Positions 24,001 to 42,377 are shown, counted from the first letter of the stretch. The stretch: DNA of 42,377 nt from an uncultured Candidatus Saccharibacteria bacterium (GCA_964357635.1 CAYHLZ010000003.1:1-42377), one strand, 5' to 3'. The notes: generated by a model from the sequence alone, not told the origin. Numbers and translations are program-made.

Positions 24001-24028
24001 AAAAGACCAGCATCCGTAGATGCTGGTC
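24001..24028 (-). terminator. Rho-independent terminator at the left edge of the 24.0-27.3 kb island
   Basis: Perfect 10-bp stem GACCAGCATC / GATGCTGGTC with a CGTA loop, followed by TTTT on the minus strand. It may also stop the plus-strand PCD transcript. Confidence 0.7.
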
Positions 24029-24048
24029 CAGTGTTGACCCGTGGAGGA

Positions 24049-24567
24049 TCAGAATGGGTACTGCGCCCTCATCGTCGGACGAGGGTGTCGATAGAGCGGC
24101 TTGCGGTCACTCTTGTGGTTGATATTGGTGACGTTGAGTCCGCGAGACTTCTTGAGATGTGCGATGATCTCGTTCATTACCGCATGGTCTTTCTCCCAGC
24201 AGTCGACGAGACTCGGGCAGATGCCCACGAACGAGATCAGGGGAAACTTCAAAGTCGGGAAGTCGCGAGTCCACATGAGTGAAAACTCGCCAACCCACGA
24301 AGGAACTTCGCTGTCCCCTTGTTGGTATTCGAACCATAGGCGTCCTTTGAGTCCGGTACACTCCGAGTCAAAAAAGACGACCATCCCCGCTACTGGCTTC
24401 TCGATTTGAACGTCTCCCTTCAACCTCTTGTAAAGGCTTTCAGGCGACTTCAGGTTCCAGACACTGCAGTGCTTGTGCCTGGTTATCGAGGTGATTCCAT
24501 AGCTTCTGGGGCTTTCGAACCCATGGTCACCATGGAGTGTGAGTAATACCAGAGCGTTATTCTTCAT
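24049..24567 (-). CDS. Hypothetical protein (172 aa, no recognisable family)
   Basis: It is the longest frame in a stretch at about 50% GC. It has its own TTGACT-N17-TAAACT promoter, a GAAAGGG ribosome-binding site and a downstream terminator. Start placed at ATG 24567; the track ORF starts at a TTG at 24573. Confidence 0.6.
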   Translation of the reverse strand: MKNNALVLLTLHGDHGFESPRSYGITSITRHKHCSVWNLKSPESLYKRLKGDVQIEKPVAGMVVFFDSECTGLKGRLWFEYQQGDSEVPSWVGEFSLMWTRDFPTLKFPLISFVGICPSLVDCWEKDHAVMNEIIAHLKKSRGLNVTNINHKSDRKPLYRHPRPTMRAQYPF

Positions 24568-24622
24568 AGTCAACCCTTTCTTTGTTTCAAAACCGCCAAA
24601 AACAGCGGGTTAGTCCTTTGCA

Positions 24623-24651
24623 AGTTTACCTCTATCAGAGACAAAAGTCAA
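24623..24651 (-). promoter_or_regulatory. Sigma70-type promoter for the 24049-24567 gene
   Basis: The minus strand reads TTGACT (24646-24651) - N17 - TAAACT (24623-24628). Confidence 0.5.
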
Positions 24652-24681
24652 GTGAGTTTATGGTTAGTTTGGAAGTACCAC

Positions 24682-24710
24682 TTGCATTTTATAAACTCTT
24701 GTTGTATAAT
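24682..24710 (+). promoter_or_regulatory. Sigma70-type promoter for the SPFH-like gene
   Basis: TTGCAT (24682-24687) - N17 - TATAAT (24705-24710), divergent from the promoter at 24623-24651. Confidence 0.6.
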
Positions 24711-24763
24711 CTTGATTAGACAAGGTTTCAGCACCTTACATAGATTACTTCACTTCTTTTAGA

Positions 24764-24775
24764 GCGCCTAGGCGC
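24764..24775. promoter_or_regulatory. Perfect 12-bp palindrome GCGCCTAGGCGC abutting the SD of the SPFH-like gene
   Basis: It lies in the 5' UTR, directly 5' of GAGGAG (24776-24781) and 11 nt before the ATG at 24787. Confidence 0.4.
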
Positions 24776-24786
24776 GAGGAGTTCAC

Positions 24787-25866
24787 ATGTTTATCTTGAT
24801 TGGTTTCCTTCTGGCGACGGTCGTCGTCGTCGGACTGATCTTTTTCCTTCGTTGGTTTGCCGGCAAGGAAAATCCTACCATCATCACTTTTGTGCCTGCG
24901 CAGACACACGCCTTGGTTACGACCAAAGGCGTCTCATCTGACGAGGTTCGAAAAAACCCGAACAAAATAGAAGAACAAGGCAACGTCGTAGATGTTGTCC
25001 ATGCCATTCCGGGTAAGTGGTTCGACAAGTCAGCGAGTAACCCTTTTGACTGGTGTTACAAGAAGGAGGACGACGAACACAAGGAACCCAGAGGCCTCTT
25101 GTATCTTCTCTTTGGTATTGTTGTCGTCGGTTTCTTCCGTTATTTACGCCTCAACTTGGTGCGCACATTCCGATGGGGCAGGAAGAGCGCGGAAGAGAAA
25201 TACCACATGCAGGCCAAGGACTCACTTACCCGTTTCTCGTTCTTCTCTGGACAACATGACGTCCAGCTCCAGGATGTGGAAACATCTGATCTGCTTGGTG
25301 TCAATCTTCGGCTACAACTCCTTTACGAGGAGAAGTATCCCTTTAGGGTGAGACTGAAGACAGCGGATCCGTATGCCGTGATATCGGATAGGGCGTCCAA
25401 GTCTGCCATCGGCCTCATCGGCGCGCATGGTGCGAAGGCTATCGTCCTGGACAAGAAACTCCAAGATGAGCTGGCGCTGAGGGTTAAAGAAGTGATCGGC
25501 AAGGAGGTTGAGGACGATCTTGGCGTTGAGATCACCACAGCGACGCTCGCTGATGTTGATTACAACGAGGAAACGAAAGAGCTCCTCGAAAAGAAAGCCA
25601 AGGCAGAGTTTGAAGCCGAAGCGAACCTCATTACGGCTAAGAACGAGGCGGCACAGGCAATTGAACGCGCTGATGGGCAGATGAAAGCTCAGAAGCTTCT
25701 CAACGAAGGTGCCGCTGATCGAGTCACGACGGTGATCAAGCCGATTGTCGCGATGGGTGAACTTGGTGTAGAGGTACGCAAAGCCGAGGCATACGAAAAC
25801 AATCAGACCATGACGACACTCGTTATCGGCCAAGGCGCTTCGCCTGTAATTCCTATCGGGAAGTAA
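24787..25866 (+). CDS. SPFH/Band-7 (stomatin/prohibitin)-like membrane protein
   Basis: N-terminal TM (FILIGFLLATVVVVGLIFFL), a second hydrophobic segment (LLYLLFGIVVVGFF), an SPFH-like core (...LGVEITTATLADVDYNEE) and an A/E/K-rich coiled coil (KAKAEFEAEANLITAKNEAAQAIERADGQ). GAGGAG ribosome-binding site. Confidence 0.55.
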   Translation: MFILIGFLLATVVVVGLIFFLRWFAGKENPTIITFVPAQTHALVTTKGVSSDEVRKNPNKIEEQGNVVDVVHAIPGKWFDKSASNPFDWCYKKEDDEHKEPRGLLYLLFGIVVVGFFRYLRLNLVRTFRWGRKSAEEKYHMQAKDSLTRFSFFSGQHDVQLQDVETSDLLGVNLRLQLLYEEKYPFRVRLKTADPYAVISDRASKSAIGLIGAHGAKAIVLDKKLQDELALRVKEVIGKEVEDDLGVEITTATLADVDYNEETKELLEKKAKAEFEAEANLITAKNEAAQAIERADGQMKAQKLLNEGAADRVTTVIKPIVAMGELGVEVRKAEAYENNQTMTTLVIGQGASPVIPIGK

Positions 25867-25886
25867 TCGCGCACTATGCGCACACG

Positions 25887-25925
25887 TGCCACCGTTAGCC
25901 TAAAGGCTTTCGGTGGCATTTTTTT
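25887..25925 (+). terminator. Rho-independent terminator after the SPFH-like gene
   Basis: Stem TGCCACCG (25887-25894) pairs with CGGTGGCA (25911-25918), followed by T7. Confidence 0.75.
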
Positions 25926-25927
25926 AT

Positions 25928-25957
25928 TTGACAAATACAACTTAAATATGATATAAT
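25928..25957 (+). promoter_or_regulatory. Consensus sigma70-type promoter for the lytic transglycosylase gene
   Basis: TTGACA (25928-25933) - N18 - TATAAT (25952-25957). A GAGGTG ribosome-binding site lies 4 nt before the ATG at 26005. Confidence 0.6.
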
Positions 25958-26004
25958 GTTAGTAGGCTTAAATTAACGGATTGAACATTCACATGAGGTG
26001 ATTT

Positions 26005-27246
26005 ATGGAAAACGAAGAACCTGATCAGACTGATCAGTTCGCCGTTGAAGATATCGAAAGAGGTCTTGAAGCAGAAAAAGCCAAAGAAGAAGTGCCAATC
26101 GAGCTGAGGCTGGTCGAGGAAGAAGTCCCTGTCCAGAACAAGACAGAAATGGATACAGTTCTGGAAACGGATACTGCGCCGGTGGTTGAGGCAAAAACCG
26201 AAGCAACCGCTGGAAAAGTTCCGAACGGAAAGCTCAATAAGGTATGGAGATGGACGAAATCCAACTTCTGGATTCTTTTCTGGGCGACGATCGGACTCTC
26301 TGCCTTTATCCTTCTAGGCTTCTTGCTCAGCGGAGTCGTTGAAAAGACGGTCGGAGTCGACGGCGCTCTCCACCAGAACTTTTGGTGGTGGACGCTCGGC
26401 ATCGTGGTAGTGATCGTCGTCATCTGGCTTCTCCTGCGAAGCTCCAAGGCAAAACAATACCCTGATGGGACGGCCAAGCCTCTGAACCCAGAGATAGTTG
26501 CAGTGGCAGTTTCTTCGCCACCACAACCGGCCAGGAGAATGGGTACGAGTTGGCCCGTGAGCGCTCTTGCCATCTTTGGTGGCGTAATCCTCTTCGGTTT
26601 ACTGTTGGGAGTTCTCATGGATGATGGTCCGAATCTCTCAAAGCCTGTCGCTTCGGCAATGGTAACAGAGACGACTGAGAACGGTTGGAATCTACCAACC
26701 GAAATCGTTCTCTCTATAATCGCTGATTGCGAAAGTGGAGACAAATGCCAGCCCGGCACTGGACGCCAGTTCAACAAGGACGGTAGTGTTGTCACAAACA
26801 AGAATAAAGATGGCACCATTGACATCGGTAAGTGGCAGATCAACTCTCGGCACGAAGTCGAGGCGAAGGCAAACAATATCGACCTCACAACTGAGGAAGG
26901 TAATCAAGCTTTTACTATGAGACTCTACAAACGTGAAGGGCTCAACCCATGGAAGGCGTCGCGGAGTGGTTGGGAACCCTTGCTCCTTTCTTACGGAAGT
27001 GGGGTGAGCGTGGCCAACACATATGTAGCACGAGCCGGAGAGCCGGTCGTGATTAGCATACCGCCGGATTATCGCCGAAAAATGGTGGGTGAACTTCCCA
27101 CTGTTGGTCTCTACTCCGAGAAATACCTTGATGCAGACAGAAACCTCATCGAGACAATCGGGGTCGTACCTCCGGCAACGGAAGCGATAATGCATATTGC
27201 CATCACCAAGTGCCGTTCGCAGGCTGATTGTGCAAGTACAAGGTAG
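26005..27246 (+). CDS. Membrane-anchored lysozyme-like / lytic transglycosylase protein
   Basis: Acidic N-terminus and three predicted TM segments. These are followed by IIADCESGDKCQPG...DGTIDIGKWQINSRHEVEAKANNIDL...NQAFTMRLYKREGLNPW, which matches the catalytic-Glu 'CES' plus 'D.G..QIN' pattern of SLT/Rpf-like muramidases. The C-terminal ~150 aa are unassigned. Confidence 0.55.
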   Translation: MENEEPDQTDQFAVEDIERGLEAEKAKEEVPIELRLVEEEVPVQNKTEMDTVLETDTAPVVEAKTEATAGKVPNGKLNKVWRWTKSNFWILFWATIGLSAFILLGFLLSGVVEKTVGVDGALHQNFWWWTLGIVVVIVVIWLLLRSSKAKQYPDGTAKPLNPEIVAVAVSSPPQPARRMGTSWPVSALAIFGGVILFGLLLGVLMDDGPNLSKPVASAMVTETTENGWNLPTEIVLSIIADCESGDKCQPGTGRQFNKDGSVVTNKNKDGTIDIGKWQINSRHEVEAKANNIDLTTEEGNQAFTMRLYKREGLNPWKASRSGWEPLLLSYGSGVSVANTYVARAGEPVVISIPPDYRRKMVGELPTVGLYSEKYLDADRNLIETIGVVPPATEAIMHIAITKCRSQADCASTR

Positions 27247-27262
27247 TACCTGCAAACGCAAA

Positions 27263-27297
27263 GGCGTCCCGATCGCGAGATCGCGGACGCCTTTTTT
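27263..27297 (+). terminator. Strong rho-independent terminator between the convergent lytic transglycosylase gene and the pilin-like array
   Basis: GGCGTCCCGATC-GCGA-GATCGCGGACGCC forms a 12-bp stem with one bulge and a GNRA loop, followed by T6. Confidence 0.8.
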
Positions 27298-27326: not shown

Positions 27327-27683
27327 TTAGACACCAGGAATTGGAACTGACGGAACTTGCTCAAGAGATTCACCTTGTTCAATACCAAAGGCATCCCCGA
27401 TAAAGCCAACGAGTCCCCAAACAGAAACCATCACAAAGAGAGCAATGACACCCCAAACCATGGTTTTCTTAGCATCTGACTTTGACTCCTCATTGCCTTG
27501 AGCAAAGATGAACTTAACGAGACCCCAGAAGAATGCTAGAAGAGCGATACCCACCACTACAGGTAGAAGAGTGCCTACAAGACCGCCAATGGAAGTGGCG
27601 AAGGTTTCCAAGTTGCCAAACTCTTCTTGAGCAAAAGCAAATGAAGGAAGAAATGCTAAGAGTGTGAGAGTTGTTTTTTTCAT
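27327..27683 (-). CDS. VirB2/TrbC-like two-TM small protein, family 1, with signal peptide (P1)
   Basis: 118 aa. Signal peptide ...FAFA|QEE, TM1 ending FFWGLVKFIF, loop AQGNEESKSDAKK, TM2 WGVIALFVMVSVWG and a Pro-rich tail. Confidence 0.6.
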   Translation of the reverse strand: MKKTTLTLLAFLPSFAFAQEEFGNLETFATSIGGLVGTLLPVVVGIALLAFFWGLVKFIFAQGNEESKSDAKKTMVWGVIALFVMVSVWGLVGFIGDAFGIEQGESLEQVPSVPIPGV

Positions 27684-27692
27684 TTGTTTACT

Positions 27693-27959
27693 TTAGATGT
27701 TGAGATAGTCGGGAGGGTCAATACCGAAGGTGCTAAGAACCAAACGAATCAAACTAAAGGCAGAAATCATGATAAACATGCCGAAGAGTCCCCAAAAGAT
27801 TTTCTTTTTACCAGTTTCGCGCTTGTCATCGGATGTCTCGGAGAAAATGAACTGAAAAATTCCCCAGAAGAAGACTAAGGCGGCTATGGCGAAAGCAAGT
27901 ACAATCAGAGGGTTAAGAATGTAACGGTTAACCCCGTTGAGAAACTCGGATATGTCCAT
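27693..27959 (-). CDS. VirB2/TrbC-like two-TM small protein, family 1, leaderless (P2)
   Basis: 88 aa with no signal peptide. TM1 ending FFWGIFQFIF, a charged loop, and TM2 WGLFGMFIMISAFS. Confidence 0.55.
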   Translation of the reverse strand: MDISEFLNGVNRYILNPLIVLAFAIAALVFFWGIFQFIFSETSDDKRETGKKKIFWGLFGMFIMISAFSLIRLVLSTFGIDPPDYLNI

Positions 27960-27974
27960 CAGACGTTCTAGAAA

Positions 27975-28319
27975 CTAAATTCCAGGAACTGTTGGAGTGT
28001 CGGTAAGTTGGTCCTGGTTAATACCAAGTGCGCTACCAATGAATTCTACGAGACCCCAGACAGAAACCATCACGAAGAGGGCAATAAGACCCCAGAGCAT
28101 GATTTTCTTAGCTTCTGCCTTAGATTCCTCATTGCCTTGGGCAAAGATGAACTTAACAAGTCCCCAGAAGAAGACTAGAAGGGCGATAGCAACGACTATA
28201 GGTAGAGCTAGAGCTACCAATTCGCCGATATTTTCAACGAATGTGTCTATGTTGCCAAGGTCTTGAGCAAAGGCGAAAGCTGGAGCAAATGCCAAGAGGG
28301 CAAGGATAACTTTTTTCAT
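27975..28319 (-). CDS. VirB2/TrbC-like two-TM small protein, family 1, with signal peptide (P3)
   Basis: 114 aa and roughly 70% identical to P1 by eye. Signal peptide ...FAFA|QD, FFWGLVKFIFAQGNEESK and WGLIALFVMVSVWG. Confidence 0.6.
   Translation of the reverse strand: MKKVILALLAFAPAFAFAQDLGNIDTFVENIGELVALALPIVVAIALLVFFWGLVKFIFAQGNEESKAEAKKIMLWGLIALFVMVSVWGLVEFIGSALGINQDQLTDTPTVPGI
28054..28094. repeat. 41-nt exact repeat, copy 1 (inside P3)
   Basis: ccccagacagaaaccatcacgaagagggcaataagacccca is identical to 28541-28581. It encodes the WGLIALFVMVSVWG helix. Confidence 0.9.
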
Positions 28320-28434
28320 TTATTGTAACTTTTGAGGGCCTTTAAACGAGCCCTTTGTTATTTGTAATATACCTAAACGGTACCTCTATATCCTATCCCA
28401 GTGGGATATGAGGCGCAATCAAGTTATCCCCTGC

Positions 28435-28818
28435 CTACTGAAAGTCTCCAGAACGGGGCGGAATGTTGCCACTACCACCATTATCGGTAGGTGTGGGAGA
28501 CACCCCACCAAGAAGAGCATCTTGGAAGAACTCTATTATCCCCCAGACAGAAACCATCACGAAGAGGGCAATAAGACCCCACTTCATCAATCTCTTACCG
28601 TCATCTACCGCTTTCTCTCCGTCCCCGCCTAGGCGGAAGACAAATTTAACGAGACCCCAAAAGAAGACTAGCAGGGCCACGCCGACAAGTATTGCAATTA
28701 AGGGATTAATAAGACCCCCCGTTGCGGTGATAAGTTCTCCTAGACCCGTGAGTTGAGCAGAAGCTACTAGGGGTAATAGAGCGAGTGCGGGTATAAGAAG
28801 TTTTATATATTTTTTCAT
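28435..28818 (-). CDS. VirB2/TrbC-like two-TM small protein, family 1, with signal peptide (P4)
   Basis: 127 aa. Signal peptide ...VASA|QL, FFWGLVKFVF, loop RLGGDGEKAVDDGKR, WGLIALFVMVSVWG and a Gly/Pro-rich tail. Confidence 0.6.
   Translation of the reverse strand: MKKYIKLLIPALALLPLVASAQLTGLGELITATGGLINPLIAILVGVALLVFFWGLVKFVFRLGGDGEKAVDDGKRLMKWGLIALFVMVSVWGIIEFFQDALLGGVSPTPTDNGGSGNIPPRSGDFQ
28541..28581. repeat. 41-nt exact repeat, copy 2 (inside P4)
   Basis: Identical to 28054-28094. The flanking codons differ. Confidence 0.9.
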
Positions 28819-28823
28819 AGTTA

Positions 28824-29111
28824 TTAATTACCTTGTGGTAAAAGAGGCCAGCCGGAGCCGAACCCGGGAATTTCGTTACTGGCAAAGGCAAGGATAGACA
28901 TTAATGAGATTACTATAAAGAGCGCGATGAGACCCCAGACCATAAGTTTCTTTCCGTCTGAAATGGCCTTCTCATCTCCACCAACGCGGAAAATAAACTT
29001 AACCAAACCCCAAACAAAAACCAGAACAGAAAGACCAAAAATTACCGGCAAGGCCAGAGTTATCAAATCAACGATGACCATTACTACAGAGTTAAAATCG
29101 GTTGGTGCCAT
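28824..29111 (-). CDS. VirB2/TrbC-like two-TM small protein, family 1, leaderless (P5)
   Basis: 95 aa from ATG 29111 (the ORF extends to a TTG at 29126). It has VFVWGLVKFIF, loop RVGGDEKAISDGKK and WGLIALFIVISLMS. Its start lies 2 nt after the P6 stop. Confidence 0.55.
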   Translation of the reverse strand: MAPTDFNSVVMVIVDLITLALPVIFGLSVLVFVWGLVKFIFRVGGDEKAISDGKKLMVWGLIALFIVISLMSILAFASNEIPGFGSGWPLLPQGN

Positions 29112-29113
29112 GT

Positions 29114-29545
29114 TTATATTGGGCAAGATGGACCGCCTAAGGCTTCGATGGTCGTACAGACAACGTTAGCGATAACCCATGCCCCAAGAAGAACGGCAGT
29201 GCCAACGGAAGTGTAAAGAAGTGATTTGTGCGCTGTTTTAAGTTTCGTCTCATTGCCCGCTGCTGTGACATAAAGAAAGCCGGAGAAAACAAAGGCAAGC
29301 ACGGCGATGACCCCGCCGATGGGCAAGACGACATCGTTAATAATTGTTCTCACAAGACCAAAGAGGGATCTTTGGGCGCCAAAAGGATTATCGAGGGTAA
29401 CATTGATAGATGGGTTACCGACACCAGTGGGCACACAGTTTGGAGGAGAACCGGCTTGTCCGGGTGGACACTGGGCTAAAACTGAGGGAATACCGACAGC
29501 AAAGAAAAAAGAGAGAGATAAAAGAGTTATGGGTAATTTTTTCAT
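29114..29545 (-). CDS. VirB2/TrbC-like two-TM small protein, family 2, Cys-containing (P6)
   Basis: 143 aa from ATG 29545. Signal peptide ...VLA|Q, CPPGQAGSPPNC, TM1 ...FSGFLYVTAAGNETKLK loop, TM2 and a C-terminal C...C pair. Confidence 0.55.
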   Translation of the reverse strand: MKKLPITLLSLSFFFAVGIPSVLAQCPPGQAGSPPNCVPTGVGNPSINVTLDNPFGAQRSLFGLVRTIINDVVLPIGGVIAVLAFVFSGFLYVTAAGNETKLKTAHKSLLYTSVGTAVLLGAWVIANVVCTTIEALGGPSCPI

Positions 29546-29549
29546 ATTT

Positions 29550-29921
29550 TTATTGTGGTGGACCAAGAAGTGAGGTGCCAGTAGTTAGGCTAGTAATAGT
29601 GTAAACCAGAAGCCATGCTGCGAGTATCCACAGGTAACCTATTAAAACTTTAGTAAAAATTCCTTTTGCTTGAGTTTTCCTAGACTCACTGCCACCAGAT
29701 GTCATAAGAAGAAATCCAGAGTAAATGAAAGCGAGAACCGCAACGAAGGTTGAAAGAAGGACTAGAGCAGTTATAACATTCTGAGCAAGCTCAATAAGGT
29801 GGTCAAAGGTGCATTCTTCTGTCACGCCATCGCAGACTATTAGGTCAAAGCCTTGAGCAGAAACACTCTGCGCCAGAAAACTAAAGAGAAGAATGGGAAT
29901 TAATAATAAAAACTTATTCAT
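29550..29921 (-). CDS. VirB2/TrbC-like two-TM small protein, family 2, Cys-containing (P7)
   Basis: 123 aa. Signal peptide ...SVSA|QG, CDGVTEEC, TM1 ...YSGFLLMTSGGSESRK loop, and TM2. Its ATG shares one nucleotide with the stop of the upstream SBP-like gene (TAATG). Confidence 0.6.
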   Translation of the reverse strand: MNKFLLLIPILLFSFLAQSVSAQGFDLIVCDGVTEECTFDHLIELAQNVITALVLLSTFVAVLAFIYSGFLLMTSGGSESRKTQAKGIFTKVLIGYLWILAAWLLVYTITSLTTGTSLLGPPQ

Positions 29922-31210
29922 TATTGTTTTATTAGCGCATCAACCTCTTCACTAATTTCGTTAATTGCCTCTCCTGACCTTGCGCGACCGCTTGTAACTG
30001 ACTCTATGGCGTTTTTAAAGACTGTGTCGGTCTCTTCGGCATCTGGGTCAAGAAAACCTTTTGACTGAAGTGCTGCATCGTAGAAGGTGGAAAAGATGGC
30101 ATCTGTAGGCTTTGAAACAAGAAGGTCTCTACGGGCTGGTGGCAAGGCAAGGTTCTTGGAGAGGAAGGCGGATGATTCTTTTGAGGTAAGAGTAGTTGCC
30201 ACGGTAAAGGCAACTGCGGGGTTTCTGGAGCCTCGAGATATTGCAACACCTTTTATGTACCCAAAGGTTGTAACTCTACTTGAGACTCTTGATTGCGGAA
30301 CAGGCGCCACAGAAAAGTTAAGGGTTGGGTTCTTGTTCTTAAGTATAGAAAACTCTGAAGCAAAACCAAGGTAGTAGGCAGAGTCCCCGCTCGTAAAGTG
30401 CGTTTGGGCATCAACGAGAGAGCGGTTCCAGCTATAAAACACTTTTGTCGGATTTGAAAACTGGGTGTAGAAGTCTAGAGCCGCAACCCCTGGTGAAATC
30501 GGCAGACTGTTGGGGTTAGTGGCAATTTGTGATTGGAGCTTGCCACTAACTTTAGCCGTGATTGGCGTACCCGCTTGGAGAAAGAGTAGAGAAAGAATGT
30601 CCTTGGCATGAGGGATATTGCGTGCCTCTCCTAGAGCTATAACTGAAGAAAACAAATTTCCGGCAGTATCCTTTTTTGAAAGGTTGGCAGCAGAGGCATA
30701 TATCTCATCCCAATACGTAATGGGCCCTGCATGCCCGGCAGACGAGAGGAGGTCTCTGTTGTAATAGAGAACCATCGGGTCTATGGATATCGGTAGGGCA
30801 AAGATGCCACCAGCATCTAGAAAGAGTTCGGCCTCCTCAACGAAAATTGTTTTAAAGTCACGTTCAGTAAAACTTTCAAACGGGATGGCCAAAAGTTTTG
30901 GTTTATTTTTCCAGAGTCGGTCTTGAGTGAGCAAAATAAGGTCTGGACCTTGTCCCCGAGCAAGTGCTTCGGTAAATTCAGTATCAAGTGCATCGGCAGA
31001 TTTTTCCACATAGCTTACAGTTAATGTATCGTCTTGAGTAAGTGTTGGGGTATTGAGAAGAAGATTAAAATAATGTGATGGCACATCTCCCCAGACAACT
31101 ATATTGACATCGTTATTACCACCTCCACCACGATAAAGAGAGAAGACAGCTACTCCAATGACAACAAAGGCCCCGAAAACTGCCAAGAGAATAATCTGAA
31201 ACTTAGACAT
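29921..31210 (-). CDS. Membrane-anchored extracellular solute-binding-protein (family 1)-like protein
   Basis: N-terminal TM anchor (ILLAVFGAFVVIGVAVF) followed by an SBP_bac_1-like body, including ALPISIDPMVLYYNRDLLSSAG. No permease or ATPase gene is adjacent. Confidence 0.6.
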   Translation of the reverse strand: MSKFQIILLAVFGAFVVIGVAVFSLYRGGGGNNDVNIVVWGDVPSHYFNLLLNTPTLTQDDTLTVSYVEKSADALDTEFTEALARGQGPDLILLTQDRLWKNKPKLLAIPFESFTERDFKTIFVEEAELFLDAGGIFALPISIDPMVLYYNRDLLSSAGHAGPITYWDEIYASAANLSKKDTAGNLFSSVIALGEARNIPHAKDILSLLFLQAGTPITAKVSGKLQSQIATNPNSLPISPGVAALDFYTQFSNPTKVFYSWNRSLVDAQTHFTSGDSAYYLGFASEFSILKNKNPTLNFSVAPVPQSRVSSRVTTFGYIKGVAISRGSRNPAVAFTVATTLTSKESSAFLSKNLALPPARRDLLVSKPTDAIFSTFYDAALQSKGFLDPDAEETDTVFKNAIESVTSGRARSGEAINEISEEVDALIKQ

Positions 31211-36450: not shown

Positions 36451-37014
36451 ATGAATTCTAACTTTTGGAAAGAGCTCGTTAAACTAGTTTTCCTCTCCCT
36501 GGTCATTGTAGTGCCGTTCCGTCTATACGTAGCCCAGCCATTTGTCGTAGAAGGCGCTTCCATGGAGCCAACTTTTGATACTGGAGACTATTTAATCGTT
36601 GATGAACTTACTTATCACTGGAAAAGCCCAGAACGTGGCTCTGTTCTTATCTTTAAATACCCTAAAGATCCTAAGAAATCATTTATTAAACGCGTTATTG
36701 GCCTTCCCAATGAGACTGTTCTAATAACTAATGGTCAGGTTGTCATAGTAAACAACGAGAACCCAGAGGGTTTTGTTCTTGATGAGTCGTATGTAAAGTT
36801 TAGCAAAAAAGAAGATTTGAGTTATGTCCTAGGTGCAGATGAATACTTTGTGCTGGGAGATAACCGAGTGGCGTCTGCTGACTCGCGTGTCTGGGGTGCG
36901 GTGCCAGAGAAAAATATTATCGGCAGACCAGTTGTCCGTTTCTATCCCCCCGCATTACTTCCTGGAGATAGTTCCAATAACCCATTGTACGAAATAAATA
37001 TTATTACACGATGA
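36451..37014 (+). CDS. lepB: Signal peptidase I
   Basis: GASMEPTF (catalytic Ser), IKRVIGLPNE (catalytic Lys) and LGDNRVASADSR boxes. Confidence 0.95.
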   Translation: MNSNFWKELVKLVFLSLVIVVPFRLYVAQPFVVEGASMEPTFDTGDYLIVDELTYHWKSPERGSVLIFKYPKDPKKSFIKRVIGLPNETVLITNGQVVIVNNENPEGFVLDESYVKFSKKEDLSYVLGADEYFVLGDNRVASADSRVWGAVPEKNIIGRPVVRFYPPALLPGDSSNNPLYEINIITR

Positions 37015-42302: not shown

Positions 42303-42377
42303 TGGTGCGCGATAGAGGACTTGAACCTCTGACCCTCCCCACGTCAAGGGGATGCTCTACCAACTGAGCTAACCGCG
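42303..42377 (-). tRNA. tRNA-Val (anticodon GAC), genomically encoded CCA, 5' end cut by window edge (1 nt missing)
   Basis: The reverse complement folds by hand into a cloverleaf. D arm GCTC/GAGC, anticodon stem TCCCC/GGGGA with loop TTGACGT, T arm AGAGG-TTCAAGT-CCTCT, and acceptor 3' ATCGCGC-A-CCA. Confidence 0.9.

What the first reader, a model, noticed from the sequence alone, without database searches (positions are those of the whole stretch)
27327..29921. Seven tandem genes for VirB2/TrbC-like two-TM mini-proteins in two sequence families
Seven consecutive minus-strand ORFs of 88-143 aa are separated by 2-15 nt, apart from one 115-nt gap. Each encodes an optional signal peptide, TM1, a short charged loop, TM2 and a variable tail, which is the layout of T4SS pilins. 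Five of them (27327-29111) share a near-invariant core F(F/V)WG(L/I)(V/F)(K/Q)F(I/V)F ... WG(L/V)(I/F)(A/G)(L/M)F(V/I)(M/V)(V/I)S. The other two (29114-29921) form a second family, with Cys pairs before TM1 (CPPGQAGSPPNC and CDGVTEEC) and a shared (F/Y)SGFL..T..G.E(T/S)(K/R) loop. Their tails are variable and rich in Pro or Gly, as expected for exposed, diversifying surfaces. I recall that similar small CPR proteins are catalogued as putative T4SS pilins, but the function of such multi-paralogue arrays is not established to my knowledge.
Basis: partly seen in the sequence, partly recalled or inferred. Interest (0 to 1): 0.7.

Follow-up and report, generated by a model that had tools for sequence, protein, structure and literature searches.

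The report
Tandem T4SS-type pilin gene array
A groundwater candidate-phyla-radiation bacterium (Zambryskibacteria-like) carries an operon of seven small two-helix membrane proteins of the known "T4SS pilin" family; such arrays are already catalogued in these bacteria, but how the copies work together has not been tested.

Summary
Seven minus-strand genes (27327-29921) encode 88-143 aa proteins with two hydrophobic helices and a short basic loop; five have an A-x-A|Q signal peptide. All seven hit Pfam PF18895 (T4SS_pilin): six above the curated cut-off, one just below. They form two sequence families that are homologous to each other.

This kind of locus is published. Quinonero-Coronel et al. 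2025 report 441 VirB2-like arrays of 2-11 genes in Patescibacteria. Wang et al. 2023 show an essential pilin array in Southlakia. The finding is therefore a new member of a known kind.

What I add:
- The array is six ancient, positionally orthologous paralogues plus one lineage-specific duplicate (g1, a copy of g3). All are under purifying selection (dN/dS 0.09-0.37).
- In 63 related species, a MalE-like solute-binding-protein gene sits immediately upstream in 59, and gyrA is nearby. No VirB4/VirD4 lies within 10 kb of any array.
- A conserved promoter plus 5' stem-loop sits in the 115-nt gap before g3.
- Relatives include single polypeptides with 2-14 fused pilin units, one of them at the same locus. 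This argues that the paralogues co-assemble.

The link to solved VirB2 pilins is weak: fold and profile comparisons were not significant. No pilus has ever been seen.

The parts
29921..31210 (-). Membrane-anchored MalE-like solute-binding protein gene (SBP_bac_8 / SBP_bac_1). It is the first gene of the operon, and its stop codon overlaps the g7 ATG by 1 nt (TAATG).
   Evidence: Pfam. PDB phmmer hits to maltose-binding and sugar-binding proteins. Stop/start overlap. Immediately upstream of the array in 59 of 63 related species. A functional link to the pilins is inferred only.
29550..29921 (-). g7, array position 1, family B pilin-like protein. Signal peptide ...VSA|Q, conserved Cys pair, two TM helices.
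   Evidence: PF18895 38.2 bits and TrbC 23.0 bits (below cut-off). Orthologues 63-70% identical at position 1. C30 invariant and C37 nearly invariant in 43 homologues. AF2 hairpin, pLDDT 77.7.
29114..29545 (-). g6, position 2, family B. Signal peptide ...VLA|Q, Pro/Gly-rich N-terminal extension with a Cys pair, second Cys pair in the C-terminal tail.
   Evidence: PF18895 34.6 bits. Orthologues 59-66% identical. N-terminal region and tail poorly conserved (0.33 and 0.28).
28824..29111 (-). g5, position 3, family A, no signal peptide.
   Evidence: PF18895 24.6 bits, just under the 26.6 cut-off. Orthologues 54-62% identical. dN/dS 0.16-0.37.
28435..28818 (-). g4, position 4, family A. Signal peptide ...ASA|Q and the most variable Pro/Gly-rich tail.
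   Evidence: PF18895 34.0 bits. Orthologues 56-61% identical. Tail conservation 0.20 and tail length 5-92 aa across 51 arrays.
28390..28431 (-). Conserved internal promoter-like region in the 115-nt gap: GGGGATAAC box (28423-28431), -35 TTGCGC (28413-28418), 17-nt spacer, -10 TAGGAT (28390-28395; TATCAT in most relatives).
   Evidence: Sequence. Alignments. Hairpin-anchored consensus over 34 loci. Function as a promoter is inferred.
28369..28383 (-). Conserved stem-loop GTACC-GTTTA-GGTAT at the predicted 5' end of the g3 transcript.
   Evidence: Found upstream of the g3 orthologue in 34 of 81 loci against 0.013 expected per 130 nt. Closing pair A-T 26, G-T 7, G-C 1, A-C 0, which fits an RNA-level helix. 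Only one instance in the window.
27975..28319 (-). g3, position 5, family A. The best-conserved member and my candidate for the major subunit. Signal peptide AFA|Q, tail with a conserved P-x-V-P motif.
   Evidence: PF18895 49.8 bits. 983 homologues, all PF18895. Orthologues 70-79% identical. Nearly invariant P109, V111, P112. AF2 hairpin, pLDDT 76.8.
27693..27959 (-). g2, position 6, family A. No signal peptide; the most basic loop (5 K/R).
   Evidence: PF18895 32.4 bits. Orthologues 65-69% identical. Loop charge.
27327..27683 (-). g1, extra seventh gene: a lineage-specific duplicate of g3.
   Evidence: 70% aa and 72% nt identity to g3; dN/dS 0.25; dS 0.93. Its best match in relatives is always position 5 (63-73%), and most relatives have six genes.
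27253..27297 (.). Terminator-like hairpin (GGCGTCC ... GGACGCC) flanked by an A-run and a T-run. It lies between the end of g1 and the convergent 413-aa gene.
   Evidence: Sequence. The consensus scan flags the inner hairpin on the + strand. Bidirectional function is inferred.

Best explanation
The locus is an operon, SBP gene then g7-g6-g5-g4, then an internal promoter, then g3-g2-g1. It encodes seven members of the Patescibacterial 'T4SS pilin' family (PF18895).

Proposed mechanism:
1. Each protein inserts into the cytoplasmic membrane as a helical hairpin, with the basic loop in the cytoplasm and both ends outside.
2. Where a signal peptide is present, signal peptidase I removes it at A-x-A|Q. 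A signal peptidase I gene lies at 36451-37014.
3. The membrane pool of subunits is then used by the monoderm-type T4SS (VirB4, TrsD, VirB3, VirB6) that this lineage encodes elsewhere on the chromosome.
4. That machine builds a surface filament or conduit used in contact with a host cell.

The paralogues are not interchangeable variants. They are six ancient subunits with fixed positions, plus one recent copy of g3, that co-assemble. g3/g1 is the likely abundant major subunit, with its own promoter and a 5' stem-loop. The Cys-containing or long-tailed members (g7, g6, g4) are likely accessory or exposed subunits.

Shown here: family membership, topology signals, positional orthology, purifying selection, conserved operon architecture, and the existence of fused multi-unit relatives. 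Inferred: signal-peptide processing, dependence on the T4SS, filament formation, and the major/minor roles.
For: Family. All seven have PF18895 as best hit. 43/43 and 46/46 homologues of g7 and g3 hit PF18895. Families A and B are homologous (hhalign 96.5%, E 7.7e-10).

Link to conjugative pilins.
- TrbC/VirB2 is the second-ranked Pfam family for family B: 10 of 43 homologues at E<0.01, best 3.9e-6.
- All seven have sub-threshold hits to NF045849, 'Mbov_0395 family pilin-like conjugal transfer protein' (g1 scores 38.3 against a cut-off of 40).
- Real VirB2 proteins share the invariant A-x-A|Q cleavage motif.
- The A. pernix conjugation pilin is among the top 4 Foldseek hits for both models, although not significantly.

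Topology. All K/R residues sit in the inter-helix loop (3-5 per protein). The N-terminal regions and tails are acidic or neutral.

Real genes with distinct roles. Positional orthology is 54-79% against 15-50% between paralogues. dN/dS is 0.09-0.37. Array size is six in 45 of 63 species.

Co-assembly. Single polypeptides carry 2-14 fused units behind one signal peptide. One is a 7-unit fusion at the same gyrA-SBP-array-Band_7 locus.

Separate expression of g3. A conserved promoter-like block and 5' hairpin lie upstream of it.

Literature.
- PF18895/VirB2-like genes lie near virB4 in 1135 of 1948 assemblies, and 441 arrays of 2-11 genes are reported (PMC12102498).
- The Southlakia pilin array sits inside the T4SS cluster and is essential (PMC10633639; PMC12857230).
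- T4SS-pilin-domain genes are among the most highly expressed genes of unknown function in Patescibacteria enrichment cultures (PMC10936435).
- VirB4 is recorded in the syntenic relative GCA_001825315.1 and in 12 of the 16 Zambryskibacteria assemblies in the parts of Table S1 that I read.
Against: - No T4SS gene is in the 42-kb window, nor in the next 10 kb of the contig.
- No VirB4/VirD4-like ATPase lies within 10 kb of the array in any of 80 related species. The only recurrent Walker-A proteins there are IF-2 and ClpB.
- Two draft genomes that carry the array (L027, L058) are listed without VirB4. Both are incomplete MAGs.
- Homology to solved pilins is not demonstrated. The PDB profile search finds nothing. 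Foldseek E-values are all about 1 or higher, and ATP synthase c and ND4L match equally well. hhalign against eight real VirB2 proteins gives 8.5% (family B) and 1.9% (family A).
- Family A never reaches TrbC at E<0.01.
- No pilus of this type has been observed in any Patescibacterium (PMC12857230).
- Fused proteins with up to 14 hairpins are hard to reconcile with extracting single subunits into a filament.
Confidence: 0.6

Rival explanations
1. Interchangeable pilin variants. The paralogues are alternative major subunits of the same T4SS filament. They would be used one at a time, or in varying mixtures, to match different host strains or to evade host defences, as proposed for Bartonella and Anaplasma VirB2 paralogues and suggested for Patescibacteria.
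For: Quinonero-Coronel et al. propose this. Paralogues are highly divergent (15-50% identity). Tails of g4 and g6 vary strongly in length and sequence between species. Array size varies from 4 to 8, with a lineage-specific duplicate here.
Against: Each position has a clear orthologue in species down to about 43% identity, in the same order. dN/dS is 0.09-0.37 with no sign of diversifying turnover. Six genes is the mode, in 45 of 63 species. Fusion of several units into one polypeptide forces co-expression and proximity. No recombination cassettes or phase-variable repeats are evident in the gaps of 2-15 nt.
Confidence: 0.15
2. Membrane-resident hetero-oligomer working with the solute-binding protein. 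The six or seven hairpins (12-14 helices) stay in the cytoplasmic membrane. They form a channel or platform that functions with the co-transcribed MalE-like binding protein, for example in uptake of host-derived carbohydrate. This would be independent of the T4SS or only loosely coupled to it.
For: The SBP gene is translationally coupled to g7. It is adjacent to the array in 59 of 63 species and highly conserved (65-89% identity). No ABC permease or ATPase partner is nearby. No T4SS gene lies within 10 kb in 80 species. Fused proteins of 6-8 units would be 12-16-helix polytopic proteins. The fixed set of six distinct subunits suggests a defined complex.
Against: The same protein family lies next to virB4 in more than 1100 assemblies, and inside the essential T4SS cluster of Southlakia. 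The only profile similarities outside PF18895 are to conjugative pilin-like families. No energising component is encoded nearby. Gene adjacency to an SBP may only reflect a shared strong promoter. Very high transcript levels reported for relatives fit a structural polymer better than a transporter.
Confidence: 0.15
3. Unrelated small membrane proteins, such as holins, bacteriocin immunity proteins or toxin-like peptides, that only resemble pilins in being two-helix hairpins.
For: The hairpin fold is generic. Foldseek cannot separate it from ATP synthase c or complex I subunits.
Against: No PHROG family matches any of the seven at E<0.01. There is no phage or bacteriocin context: the neighbours are gyrA and housekeeping genes. 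The locus is vertically conserved across at least 80 species. The Pfam and NCBIfam similarities are specifically to conjugation pilin-like families.
Confidence: 0.03

Closest known systems
VirB2-like pilin arrays of Patescibacteria (Quinonero-Coronel et al. 2025, PMC12102498; essential pilin array in the Southlakia epibionticum ML1 T4SS cluster, Wang et al. 2023, PMC10633639; 'Sec-secreted array' of TM7x)
   Same: Same Pfam family (PF18895). Tandem array within the published range of 2-11 genes. Strongly divergent paralogues. Sec-type signal peptides on several members. Monoderm CPR host. The modal array size of six in this clade matches the six pilins described for Southlakia.
   Different: This array is not in or near a T4SS cluster: no virB4 within at least 12-37 kb here or within 10 kb in 80 relatives. 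It sits at a fixed gyrA-SBP-array site and is translationally coupled to a solute-binding-protein gene. The cited paper's main text does not mention solute- or substrate-binding proteins or gyrA (term search). g1/g3 identity (70%) exceeds the maximum within-array identity they report (54%). [quoted passage not shown]
TrbC/VirB2/TraA conjugative pilins of diderm T4SS (Pfam PF04956; Agrobacterium VirB2, RP4 TrbC, F TraA)
   Same: About 70-100-residue mature proteins. Long signal peptide cleaved at A-x-A|Q (invariant in my alignment of eight real VirB2 proteins). Two hydrophobic helices joined by a short basic loop. Weak profile similarity for family B.
   Different: Scores stay under the TrbC gathering cut-off. 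There is no significant sequence or fold match to solved pili. Canonical systems have one pilin gene next to virB1/virB3/virB4; here there are seven genes far from any T4SS gene. The organism has no outer membrane. Cyclisation, acetylation and lipid co-assembly are unknown here.
Multi-copy virB2 paralogues of Anaplasma, Bartonella and Rickettsiales T4SS
   Same: Several divergent virB2 copies in tandem, which can lie apart from the virB4 operon (as summarised in PMC12102498; the scattering in Rickettsiales is also from my own knowledge).
   Different: Those are thought to serve antigenic or host-surface variation in intracellular pathogens of animals. Here the copies are positionally orthologous across many species and under purifying selection, which points to division of labour.
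Mbov_0395 / ICE_MMCAP2_0565 pilin-like conjugal transfer protein of Mycoplasma ICEs (NCBIfam NF045849)
   Same: Second independent profile that all seven proteins touch (g1 E 7.6e-10, 38.3 bits). It covers the full two-helix core and comes from wall-less monoderms whose T4SS belongs to the MPF-FATA class (the class assignment is from PMC12102498).
   Different: All scores are below the curated cut-off of 40. That protein is a single-copy gene inside a mobile element.
Archaeal Ced/Ted conjugation-like pili (A. pernix pilin, PDB 8dfu)
   Same: Best-ranked pilin in the Foldseek searches (TM-score normalised to target 0.53 and 0.62). A hairpin pilin in an organism without an outer membrane. A 14-unit fused relative of the window proteins lies on a contig whose called genes include Ribosomal_L39 (PF00832), Cas4 and Csa1, which I read as archaeal (my inference).
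   Different: E-values of 1.7-1.8 are not significant. Sequence identity is 14-21%. No Ced/Ted machinery was identified here.

Membership tests
Pfam PF18895 T4SS_pilin | Score at or above the curated gathering cut-off (26.6 bits) of the family HMM | tested here: met
   g1 42.4, g2 32.4, g3 49.8, g4 34.0, g6 34.6, g7 38.2 bits. g5 scores 24.6, just below, but is 54-62% identical to positional orthologues annotated PF18895.
Pfam PF18895 T4SS_pilin | Small protein with two hydrophobic helices joined by a short charged loop covering the 71-position model | tested here: met
   Matches span model positions 3-11 to 65-71. Two hydrophobic segments per protein. AF2 shows two long helices.
TrbC/VirB2 pilin (Pfam PF04956) | Score at or above the gathering cut-off (27.9 bits) | tested here: not met
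   Best is g7 at 23.0 bits (E 9.6e-5), then g6 17.1 and g1 15.2. 10 of 43 family B homologues reach E<0.01, best 3.9e-6; 0 of 46 family A homologues do.
TrbC/VirB2 pilin (Pfam PF04956) | Signal peptide removed by signal peptidase I at A-x-A|Q, leaving a hairpin of about 70-100 residues | tested here: inconclusive
   The motif is present in g1, g3, g4, g6 and g7 (AFA|Q, AFA|Q, ASA|Q, VLA|Q, VSA|Q). It is invariant in eight real VirB2 proteins. g2 and g5 lack a signal peptide. Cleavage itself cannot be tested here.
TrbC/VirB2 pilin (Pfam PF04956) | Fold and sequence-profile similarity to experimentally solved conjugative pilins | tested here: inconclusive
   PDB profile search: no pilin hit. Foldseek: 8dfu at rank 3-4 with E 1.7-1.8, and other hairpins equally good. 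hhalign against real VirB2: 8.5% (in register over both helices, P 0.004) and 1.9%.
TrbC/VirB2 pilin (Pfam PF04956) | Encoded in a T4SS operon next to virB1/virB3/virB4 | tested here: not met
   No T4SS gene in the window or in the next 10 kb. None within 10 kb in 80 related loci. Real virB2 genes sit between virB1 and virB3.
TrbC/VirB2 pilin (Pfam PF04956) | Polymerises with phospholipid into an extracellular pilus, driven by VirB4 | not testable with these tools
   Needs microscopy or biochemistry. No such pilus has yet been reported for any Patescibacterium (PMC12857230).
Patescibacterial VirB2-like pilin array (Quinonero-Coronel et al. 2025) | Two or more PF18895/PF04956 genes in tandem, or separated by one non-pilin gene | tested here: met
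   Seven consecutive PF18895 genes. The definition is quoted.
Patescibacterial VirB2-like pilin array (Quinonero-Coronel et al. 2025) | The genome also encodes the Patescibacteria-clade VirB4 and partner proteins | not testable with these tools
   Only about 52 kb of the 70-kb contig could be examined. Table S1 of the paper lists VirB4 = Yes for the syntenic relatives GCA_001825315.1 and GCA_001825155.1, and No for two other array-carrying draft genomes.
NCBIfam NF045849 Mbov_0395 pilin-like conjugal transfer protein | Score at or above the curated cut-off (40 bits) | tested here: not met
   g1 38.3, g2 34.4, g3 30.5, g6 24.0, g7 21.1, g4 17.0, g5 13.1 bits.
Holins and other phage small membrane proteins (PHROGs) | Match to any PHROG family | tested here: not met
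   No family at E<=0.01 for any of the seven.

The most novel reading that the evidence does not exclude
In this Paceibacteria clade the six conserved hairpin paralogues and the translationally coupled MalE-like binding protein form one functional module. That module would be a defined hetero-oligomeric conduit, either a filament or a membrane channel and possibly T4SS-independent, through which the epibiont captures and imports host-derived carbohydrate. The fused 6-8-unit 'poly-pilins' would be single-chain versions of the same assembly.
Probability: 0.12. Interest if true: 0.75.

Novelty: new member of a known kind. Interest (0 to 1): 0.35.

Why it matters
Patescibacteria make up a large share of bacterial diversity and depend on host cells. 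Their T4SS with its pilin array is one of the few systems shown to be essential for that lifestyle (Wang et al. 2023), yet nobody knows what the multiple pilins do.

This locus adds no new kind of system. It does give a clean comparative case:
- six subunits with fixed positions, conserved across many species;
- a separately promoted candidate major subunit;
- a constant solute-binding-protein partner;
- natural fusion proteins.

Together these argue that the paralogues co-assemble rather than substitute for one another. They also point to concrete experiments, such as which subunit is abundant and whether the binding protein interacts with the pilins. The absence of T4SS genes near the array is a reminder that the family name 'T4SS pilin' is still an inference for most of its more than 55,000 sequence clusters.

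Tried and rejected
1. Sequence-profile search of the PDB with alignments of g3 and g7 homologues. Only chance-level hits (PscE E 0.38; NdhC E 0.77) and no pilin.
2. Foldseek of both AF2 models against the PDB. No hit with E<0.9; the hairpin fold is too simple to discriminate.
3. hhalign against eight genuine VirB2 proteins fetched from plasmids. Probabilities were 8.5% and 1.9%, partly because my alignments have low diversity (Neff 1.9-3.0).
4. Search for VirB4/VirD4 near the array, in the window, the contig extension and 80 related loci. None found; the recurrent Walker-A proteins are IF-2 and ClpB.
5. PHROGs scan for holin or phage families. Nothing.
6. Rfam scan of the window. Only a tRNA at the window edge; the gap element is not a known RNA family.
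7. Folding the whole 115-nt gap as RNA. Not more stable than shuffles (z -1.25); only the short conserved hairpin stands out comparatively.
8. Confirming the downstream 413-aa protein as a VirB1-like lysozyme. Only weak hints (SLT_3 E 0.031; IagB E 0.02; no PDB hit), and it is conserved in only 12 of 81 loci, so I do not count it as part of the system.
9. Testing whether SBP-pilin linkage extends beyond this clade through distant SBP homologues. The search lists only the best 120 hits, all at least 64% identical, so it was uninformative.
10. I could not walk further along the contig, because only window-encoded proteins can be looked up.

Full report
OBSERVATION

The seven minus-strand ORFs exist as described. 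They are g7 29550-29921 (123 aa), g6 29114-29545 (143), g5 28824-29111 (95), g4 28435-28818 (127), g3 27975-28319 (114), g2 27693-27959 (88) and g1 27327-27683 (118). The gaps between them are 4, 2, 5, 115, 15 and 9 nt. The quoted core motifs and Cys pairs are present.

Each protein has two strongly hydrophobic segments. g1, g3, g4, g6 and g7 also have an N-terminal signal-peptide-like segment ending A-x-A|Q. g2 and g5 start just before the first helix.

The proteins fall into two sequence groups: g1-g5 (32-70% identical) and g6/g7 (44%). Cross-group identity is 24-36%. Profile-profile comparison shows the two groups are homologous (hhalign 96.5%, E 7.7e-10).

WHAT THEY ARE

All seven have Pfam PF18895 'T4SS_pilin' as their best match. 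Six exceed the curated cut-off, and g5 misses it by 2 bits. The 983 homologues of g3 and 153 of g7 found in the 5.8-billion-protein set are almost all pre-annotated PF18895. The named ones come from Candidatus Zambryskibacteria and other Parcubacteria, and a few are named 'pilin' by NCBI.

The window comes from a 70,034-bp contig of ENA assembly ERZ1292625, named Hain_H41_01um. I read the name as Hainich groundwater, 0.1-um fraction; that is an inference from the record name.

Apart from the array, the window holds housekeeping genes and a few ORFs with no Pfam match. The housekeeping genes include gyrA, dnaE, SMC, mreBC, PBP2, ftsAZ, tRNA synthetases, RRF and signal peptidase I. It contains no T4SS component.

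HOW GOOD IS THE LINK TO REAL T4SS PILINS?

It is moderate at best.

For:
- TrbC/VirB2 (PF04956) is the second-ranked family for g7, g6 and g1, and for 10 of 43 g7 homologues (best E 3.9e-6). It always stays under its cut-off.
- All seven approach the NCBIfam model for a Mycoplasma ICE 'pilin-like conjugal transfer protein' (g1 scores 38.3 against a cut-off of 40).
- Eight genuine VirB2 proteins that I fetched from plasmids have the same invariant A-x-A|Q cleavage motif.
- All Lys/Arg residues lie in the inter-helix loop, and the termini are acidic or neutral. This predicts loop-in, ends-out, which to my knowledge is the membrane topology described for VirB2/TraA propilins.

Against, or neutral:
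- No PDB sequence match.
- The AlphaFold models (pLDDT 77-78) are plain helical hairpins. Foldseek gives no hit below E of about 1. The A. pernix conjugation pilin ranks 3rd-4th, beside ATP synthase c and complex I ND4L.
- hhalign against real VirB2 gives only 8.5% and 1.9%.
- Family A never reaches TrbC at E<0.01.
- No phage or holin family matches.

So membership of PF18895 is established. Homology to VirB2 is plausible for family B and reaches family A only through family B.

WHAT IS ALREADY KNOWN

- Quinonero-Coronel et al. 2025 (PMC12102498) searched 3,035 Patescibacteria genomes with PF18895 and PF04956. They found VirB2-like genes in 1,948 VirB4-containing assemblies, near virB4 in 1,135 of them. 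[quoted passage not shown]
- Wang et al. 2023 (PMC10633639) showed that a series of predicted pilins inside the Southlakia T4SS cluster is essential for epibiotic growth.
- A 2025 review counts six such pilins in Southlakia and stresses that a pilus is only a possibility (PMC12857230).
- T4SS-pilin-domain genes are among the most highly expressed genes of unknown function in Patescibacteria enrichment cultures (PMC10936435).
- PF18895 is the top Pfam domain of freshwater-specific structure clusters.

The finding is therefore a correct re-discovery of a published kind of locus.

WHAT THE COMPARATIVE ANALYSIS ADDS

1. Positional orthology. In three annotated relatives, each of g7-g2 has its best match at the same array position (54-79% identical, against 15-50% to other positions). 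g1 always matches position 5, the g3 orthologue, so g1 is a lineage-specific duplicate (72% nt identity, dS 0.93).

2. Purifying selection. dN/dS is 0.09-0.37 for every orthologous pair, although dS is near saturation.

3. Conservation across species. A scan of one genome per GTDB species returned 80 loci, named Zambryskibacteria, Campbellbacteria, Kaiserbacteria and Paceibacteria, down to 43% identity. Using HMMs built in-session:
- Of 63 loci with complete flanks, 45 have six pilin genes (range 4-8).
- A homologue of the window's solute-binding-protein gene lies directly upstream in 59 of 63, with gaps of -20 to +44 nt.
- gyrA is present in 59 of 61 loci with enough upstream sequence.
- An SPFH/Band_7 gene recurs downstream.

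4. No T4SS ATPase nearby. None of the 80 loci has a VirB4/VirD4-like protein within 10 kb. The two recurrent Walker-A clusters are IF-2 and ClpB. According to Table S1 of the 2025 paper, VirB4 is present in 12 of the 16 Zambryskibacteria assemblies I could read. These include two that carry this array (L020, L038), while two other array-carrying drafts are listed without it (L027, L058). The machine is therefore probably encoded elsewhere. The paper reports virB4 typically near dnaA.

5. Internal regulatory element. The largest gap in six-gene arrays follows gene 4 in 41 of 50 cases. Alignments of this gap show four blocks:
- a GGGGATAAC box;
- TTGYNN, a 16-17-nt spacer, then TATCAT (TAGGAT in the window), which is sigma-70-like;
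- six nucleotides further, a stem-loop RTACC-loop-GGTAY.
The stem-loop occurs upstream of the g3 orthologue in 34 of 81 loci, against 0.013 expected per 130 nt. Its closing pair is A-T in 26 loci, G-T in 7, G-C in 1 and never A-C. This fits an RNA helix at the 5' end of a g3-g2(-g1) transcript. I infer, without proof, that g3 is made in larger amounts than the upstream genes, as a major subunit would be.

6. Tails. Conservation by region shows the helices are best conserved (0.56-0.77). Tails of position 4 (0.20; 5-92 aa) and position 2 (0.28) are the most variable. The g3 tail is length-constrained (15-32 aa) and has a near-invariant P-x-V-P motif.

7. Fusion proteins. A profile of the seven proteins finds 55,346 cluster representatives at E<=1e-3 among 1.84 billion.
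- Of the 150 best-scoring hits, 119 are single polypeptides with 2-8 or more pilin units. This ranking favours multi-unit proteins.
- Their sequences show one N-terminal signal peptide followed by repeated helix-loop-helix units, with no signal-peptide-like segments between units.
- One 7-unit fusion lies at the same gyrA-SBP-array-Band_7 locus in another lineage.
- An 8-unit fusion is followed by a pilin-PKD fusion and a PKD-repeat protein.
- A 14-unit protein lies on a contig I read as archaeal, from its Ribosomal_L39, Cas4 and Csa1 genes.
By Rosetta-stone logic, array members act side by side.

MECHANISM

The best-supported reading (confidence about 0.6) runs as follows.
1. The operon supplies a set of membrane-inserted hairpin subunits.
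2. Signal peptidase I processes those that have a signal peptide.
3. The lineage's monoderm-type T4SS, encoded elsewhere, uses them to build a surface filament or conduit for host interaction.
4. The six conserved paralogues co-assemble in distinct roles rather than serving as interchangeable variants.

Family membership, topology signals, orthology, selection, architecture and fusions are shown. Processing, T4SS dependence, filament formation and subunit roles are inferred.

Rivals:
- Interchangeable variants for host range, the published suggestion (0.15). Positional orthology and the fusions argue against it.
- A membrane-resident hetero-oligomer working with the binding protein (0.15). It is favoured by the near-constant SBP coupling, the absence of T4SS neighbours and the polytopic fusions. 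It is disfavoured by the family's strong virB4 association elsewhere and its reported high expression.
- Unrelated small membrane proteins (0.03).

VERDICT

This is a new member of a known kind, of modest interest (0.35).

The points worth following up are the conserved SBP-pilin coupling at a T4SS-distant site, the six fixed paralogues with an internally promoted candidate major subunit, and the poly-pilin fusions. A term search of the main text of the 2025 survey found no mention of pilin fusions, of solute- or substrate-binding proteins, or of gyrA.

Noticed in passing
window 29921-31210 (-); L020-L099: A membrane-anchored MalE-like solute-binding-protein gene is translationally coupled to the first pilin gene (1-nt stop/start overlap). 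It is immediately upstream of the array in 59 of 63 related species. No ABC permease or ATPase is nearby, and the protein is more conserved (65-89% identical) than the pilins.
   Followed up: partly
P0361-P0510; L100 76-1743; L101 10001-11821; L102 9925-12387; L103 10001-15328: Many relatives are single polypeptides with 2-14 tandem pilin units behind one signal peptide ('poly-pilins'); 119 of the 150 best-scoring representatives are multi-unit. One 7-unit fusion lies at the same gyrA-SBP-array-Band_7 locus. A term search of the main text of the 2025 survey of Patescibacterial T4SS found no mention of pilin fusions.
   Followed up: partly
window 28369-28431 (-); upstream of the g3 orthologue in L020-L072: The 115-nt gap holds a conserved GGGGATAAC box, a sigma-70-like -35/-10 pair and a 5-bp stem-loop (RTACC-loop-GGTAY). 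The stem-loop is present in 34 of 81 loci, and its closing pair changes only in ways that keep RNA pairing. It matches no Rfam family.
   Followed up: partly
L102 13152-14303 and 14325-16481: Next to an 8-unit poly-pilin lie a 383-aa protein combining a PF18895 unit with a PKD domain and a 718-aa PKD-repeat protein. This would put an adhesin-like domain on a pilin unit.
   Followed up: no
L103 10001-15328: A 1775-aa protein with about 14 pilin-like units (PF18895 and TrbC hits) lies on a contig whose called genes include Ribosomal_L39, Cas4 and Csa1, which I read as archaeal. The family may extend beyond Patescibacteria.
   Followed up: no
window 26005-27246 (+): The convergent downstream gene encodes a 413-aa protein with an acidic N-terminus, hydrophobic segments and a C-terminal region with weak lysozyme-like signals (SLT_3 E 0.031; IagB E 0.02; an E-S ... 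GxWQIN motif by eye). There is no PDB match, and homologues occur in only 12 of 81 loci.
   Followed up: partly
window 24787-25866 (+); L058 12066-13523; L050 12029-13234; L101 14609-15784: An SPFH/Band_7 membrane-scaffold gene recurs a few kb downstream of the array in many related species.
   Followed up: partly
window 24001-27000: G+C content rises to 0.49-0.51 in the region just downstream of the array, against 0.38-0.45 over most of the rest of the window (up to 0.47 within the array region itself). This coincides with the part of the locus whose gene content varies between relatives.
   Followed up: no
window 29856-29921 (g7 N-terminus); alignment A3: The g7 signal peptide is a lineage-specific extension. 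Most position-1 orthologues are 98-112 aa and start about six residues before the conserved AQ, so they have no signal peptide. The signal peptide therefore seems dispensable for this subunit.
   Followed up: partly
L001 6347-7012; L004 17183-17839; L006 9019-10041: IS200-type (Y1_Tnp) and rve-type transposase genes are inserted at different points around the conserved block in relatives, including between gyrA and the SBP gene in L001. None is in the window.
   Followed up: no
L010 11824-12345 (contig beyond the window's left end): A type IV pilus-type prepilin (N_methyl domain) gene lies about 1 kb beyond the window's left end. This is a different pilus system in the same organism.
   Followed up: no
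window 42306-42377 (-): A tRNA gene is cut off by the right end of the window (Rfam RF00005, 58 bits).
   Followed up: no
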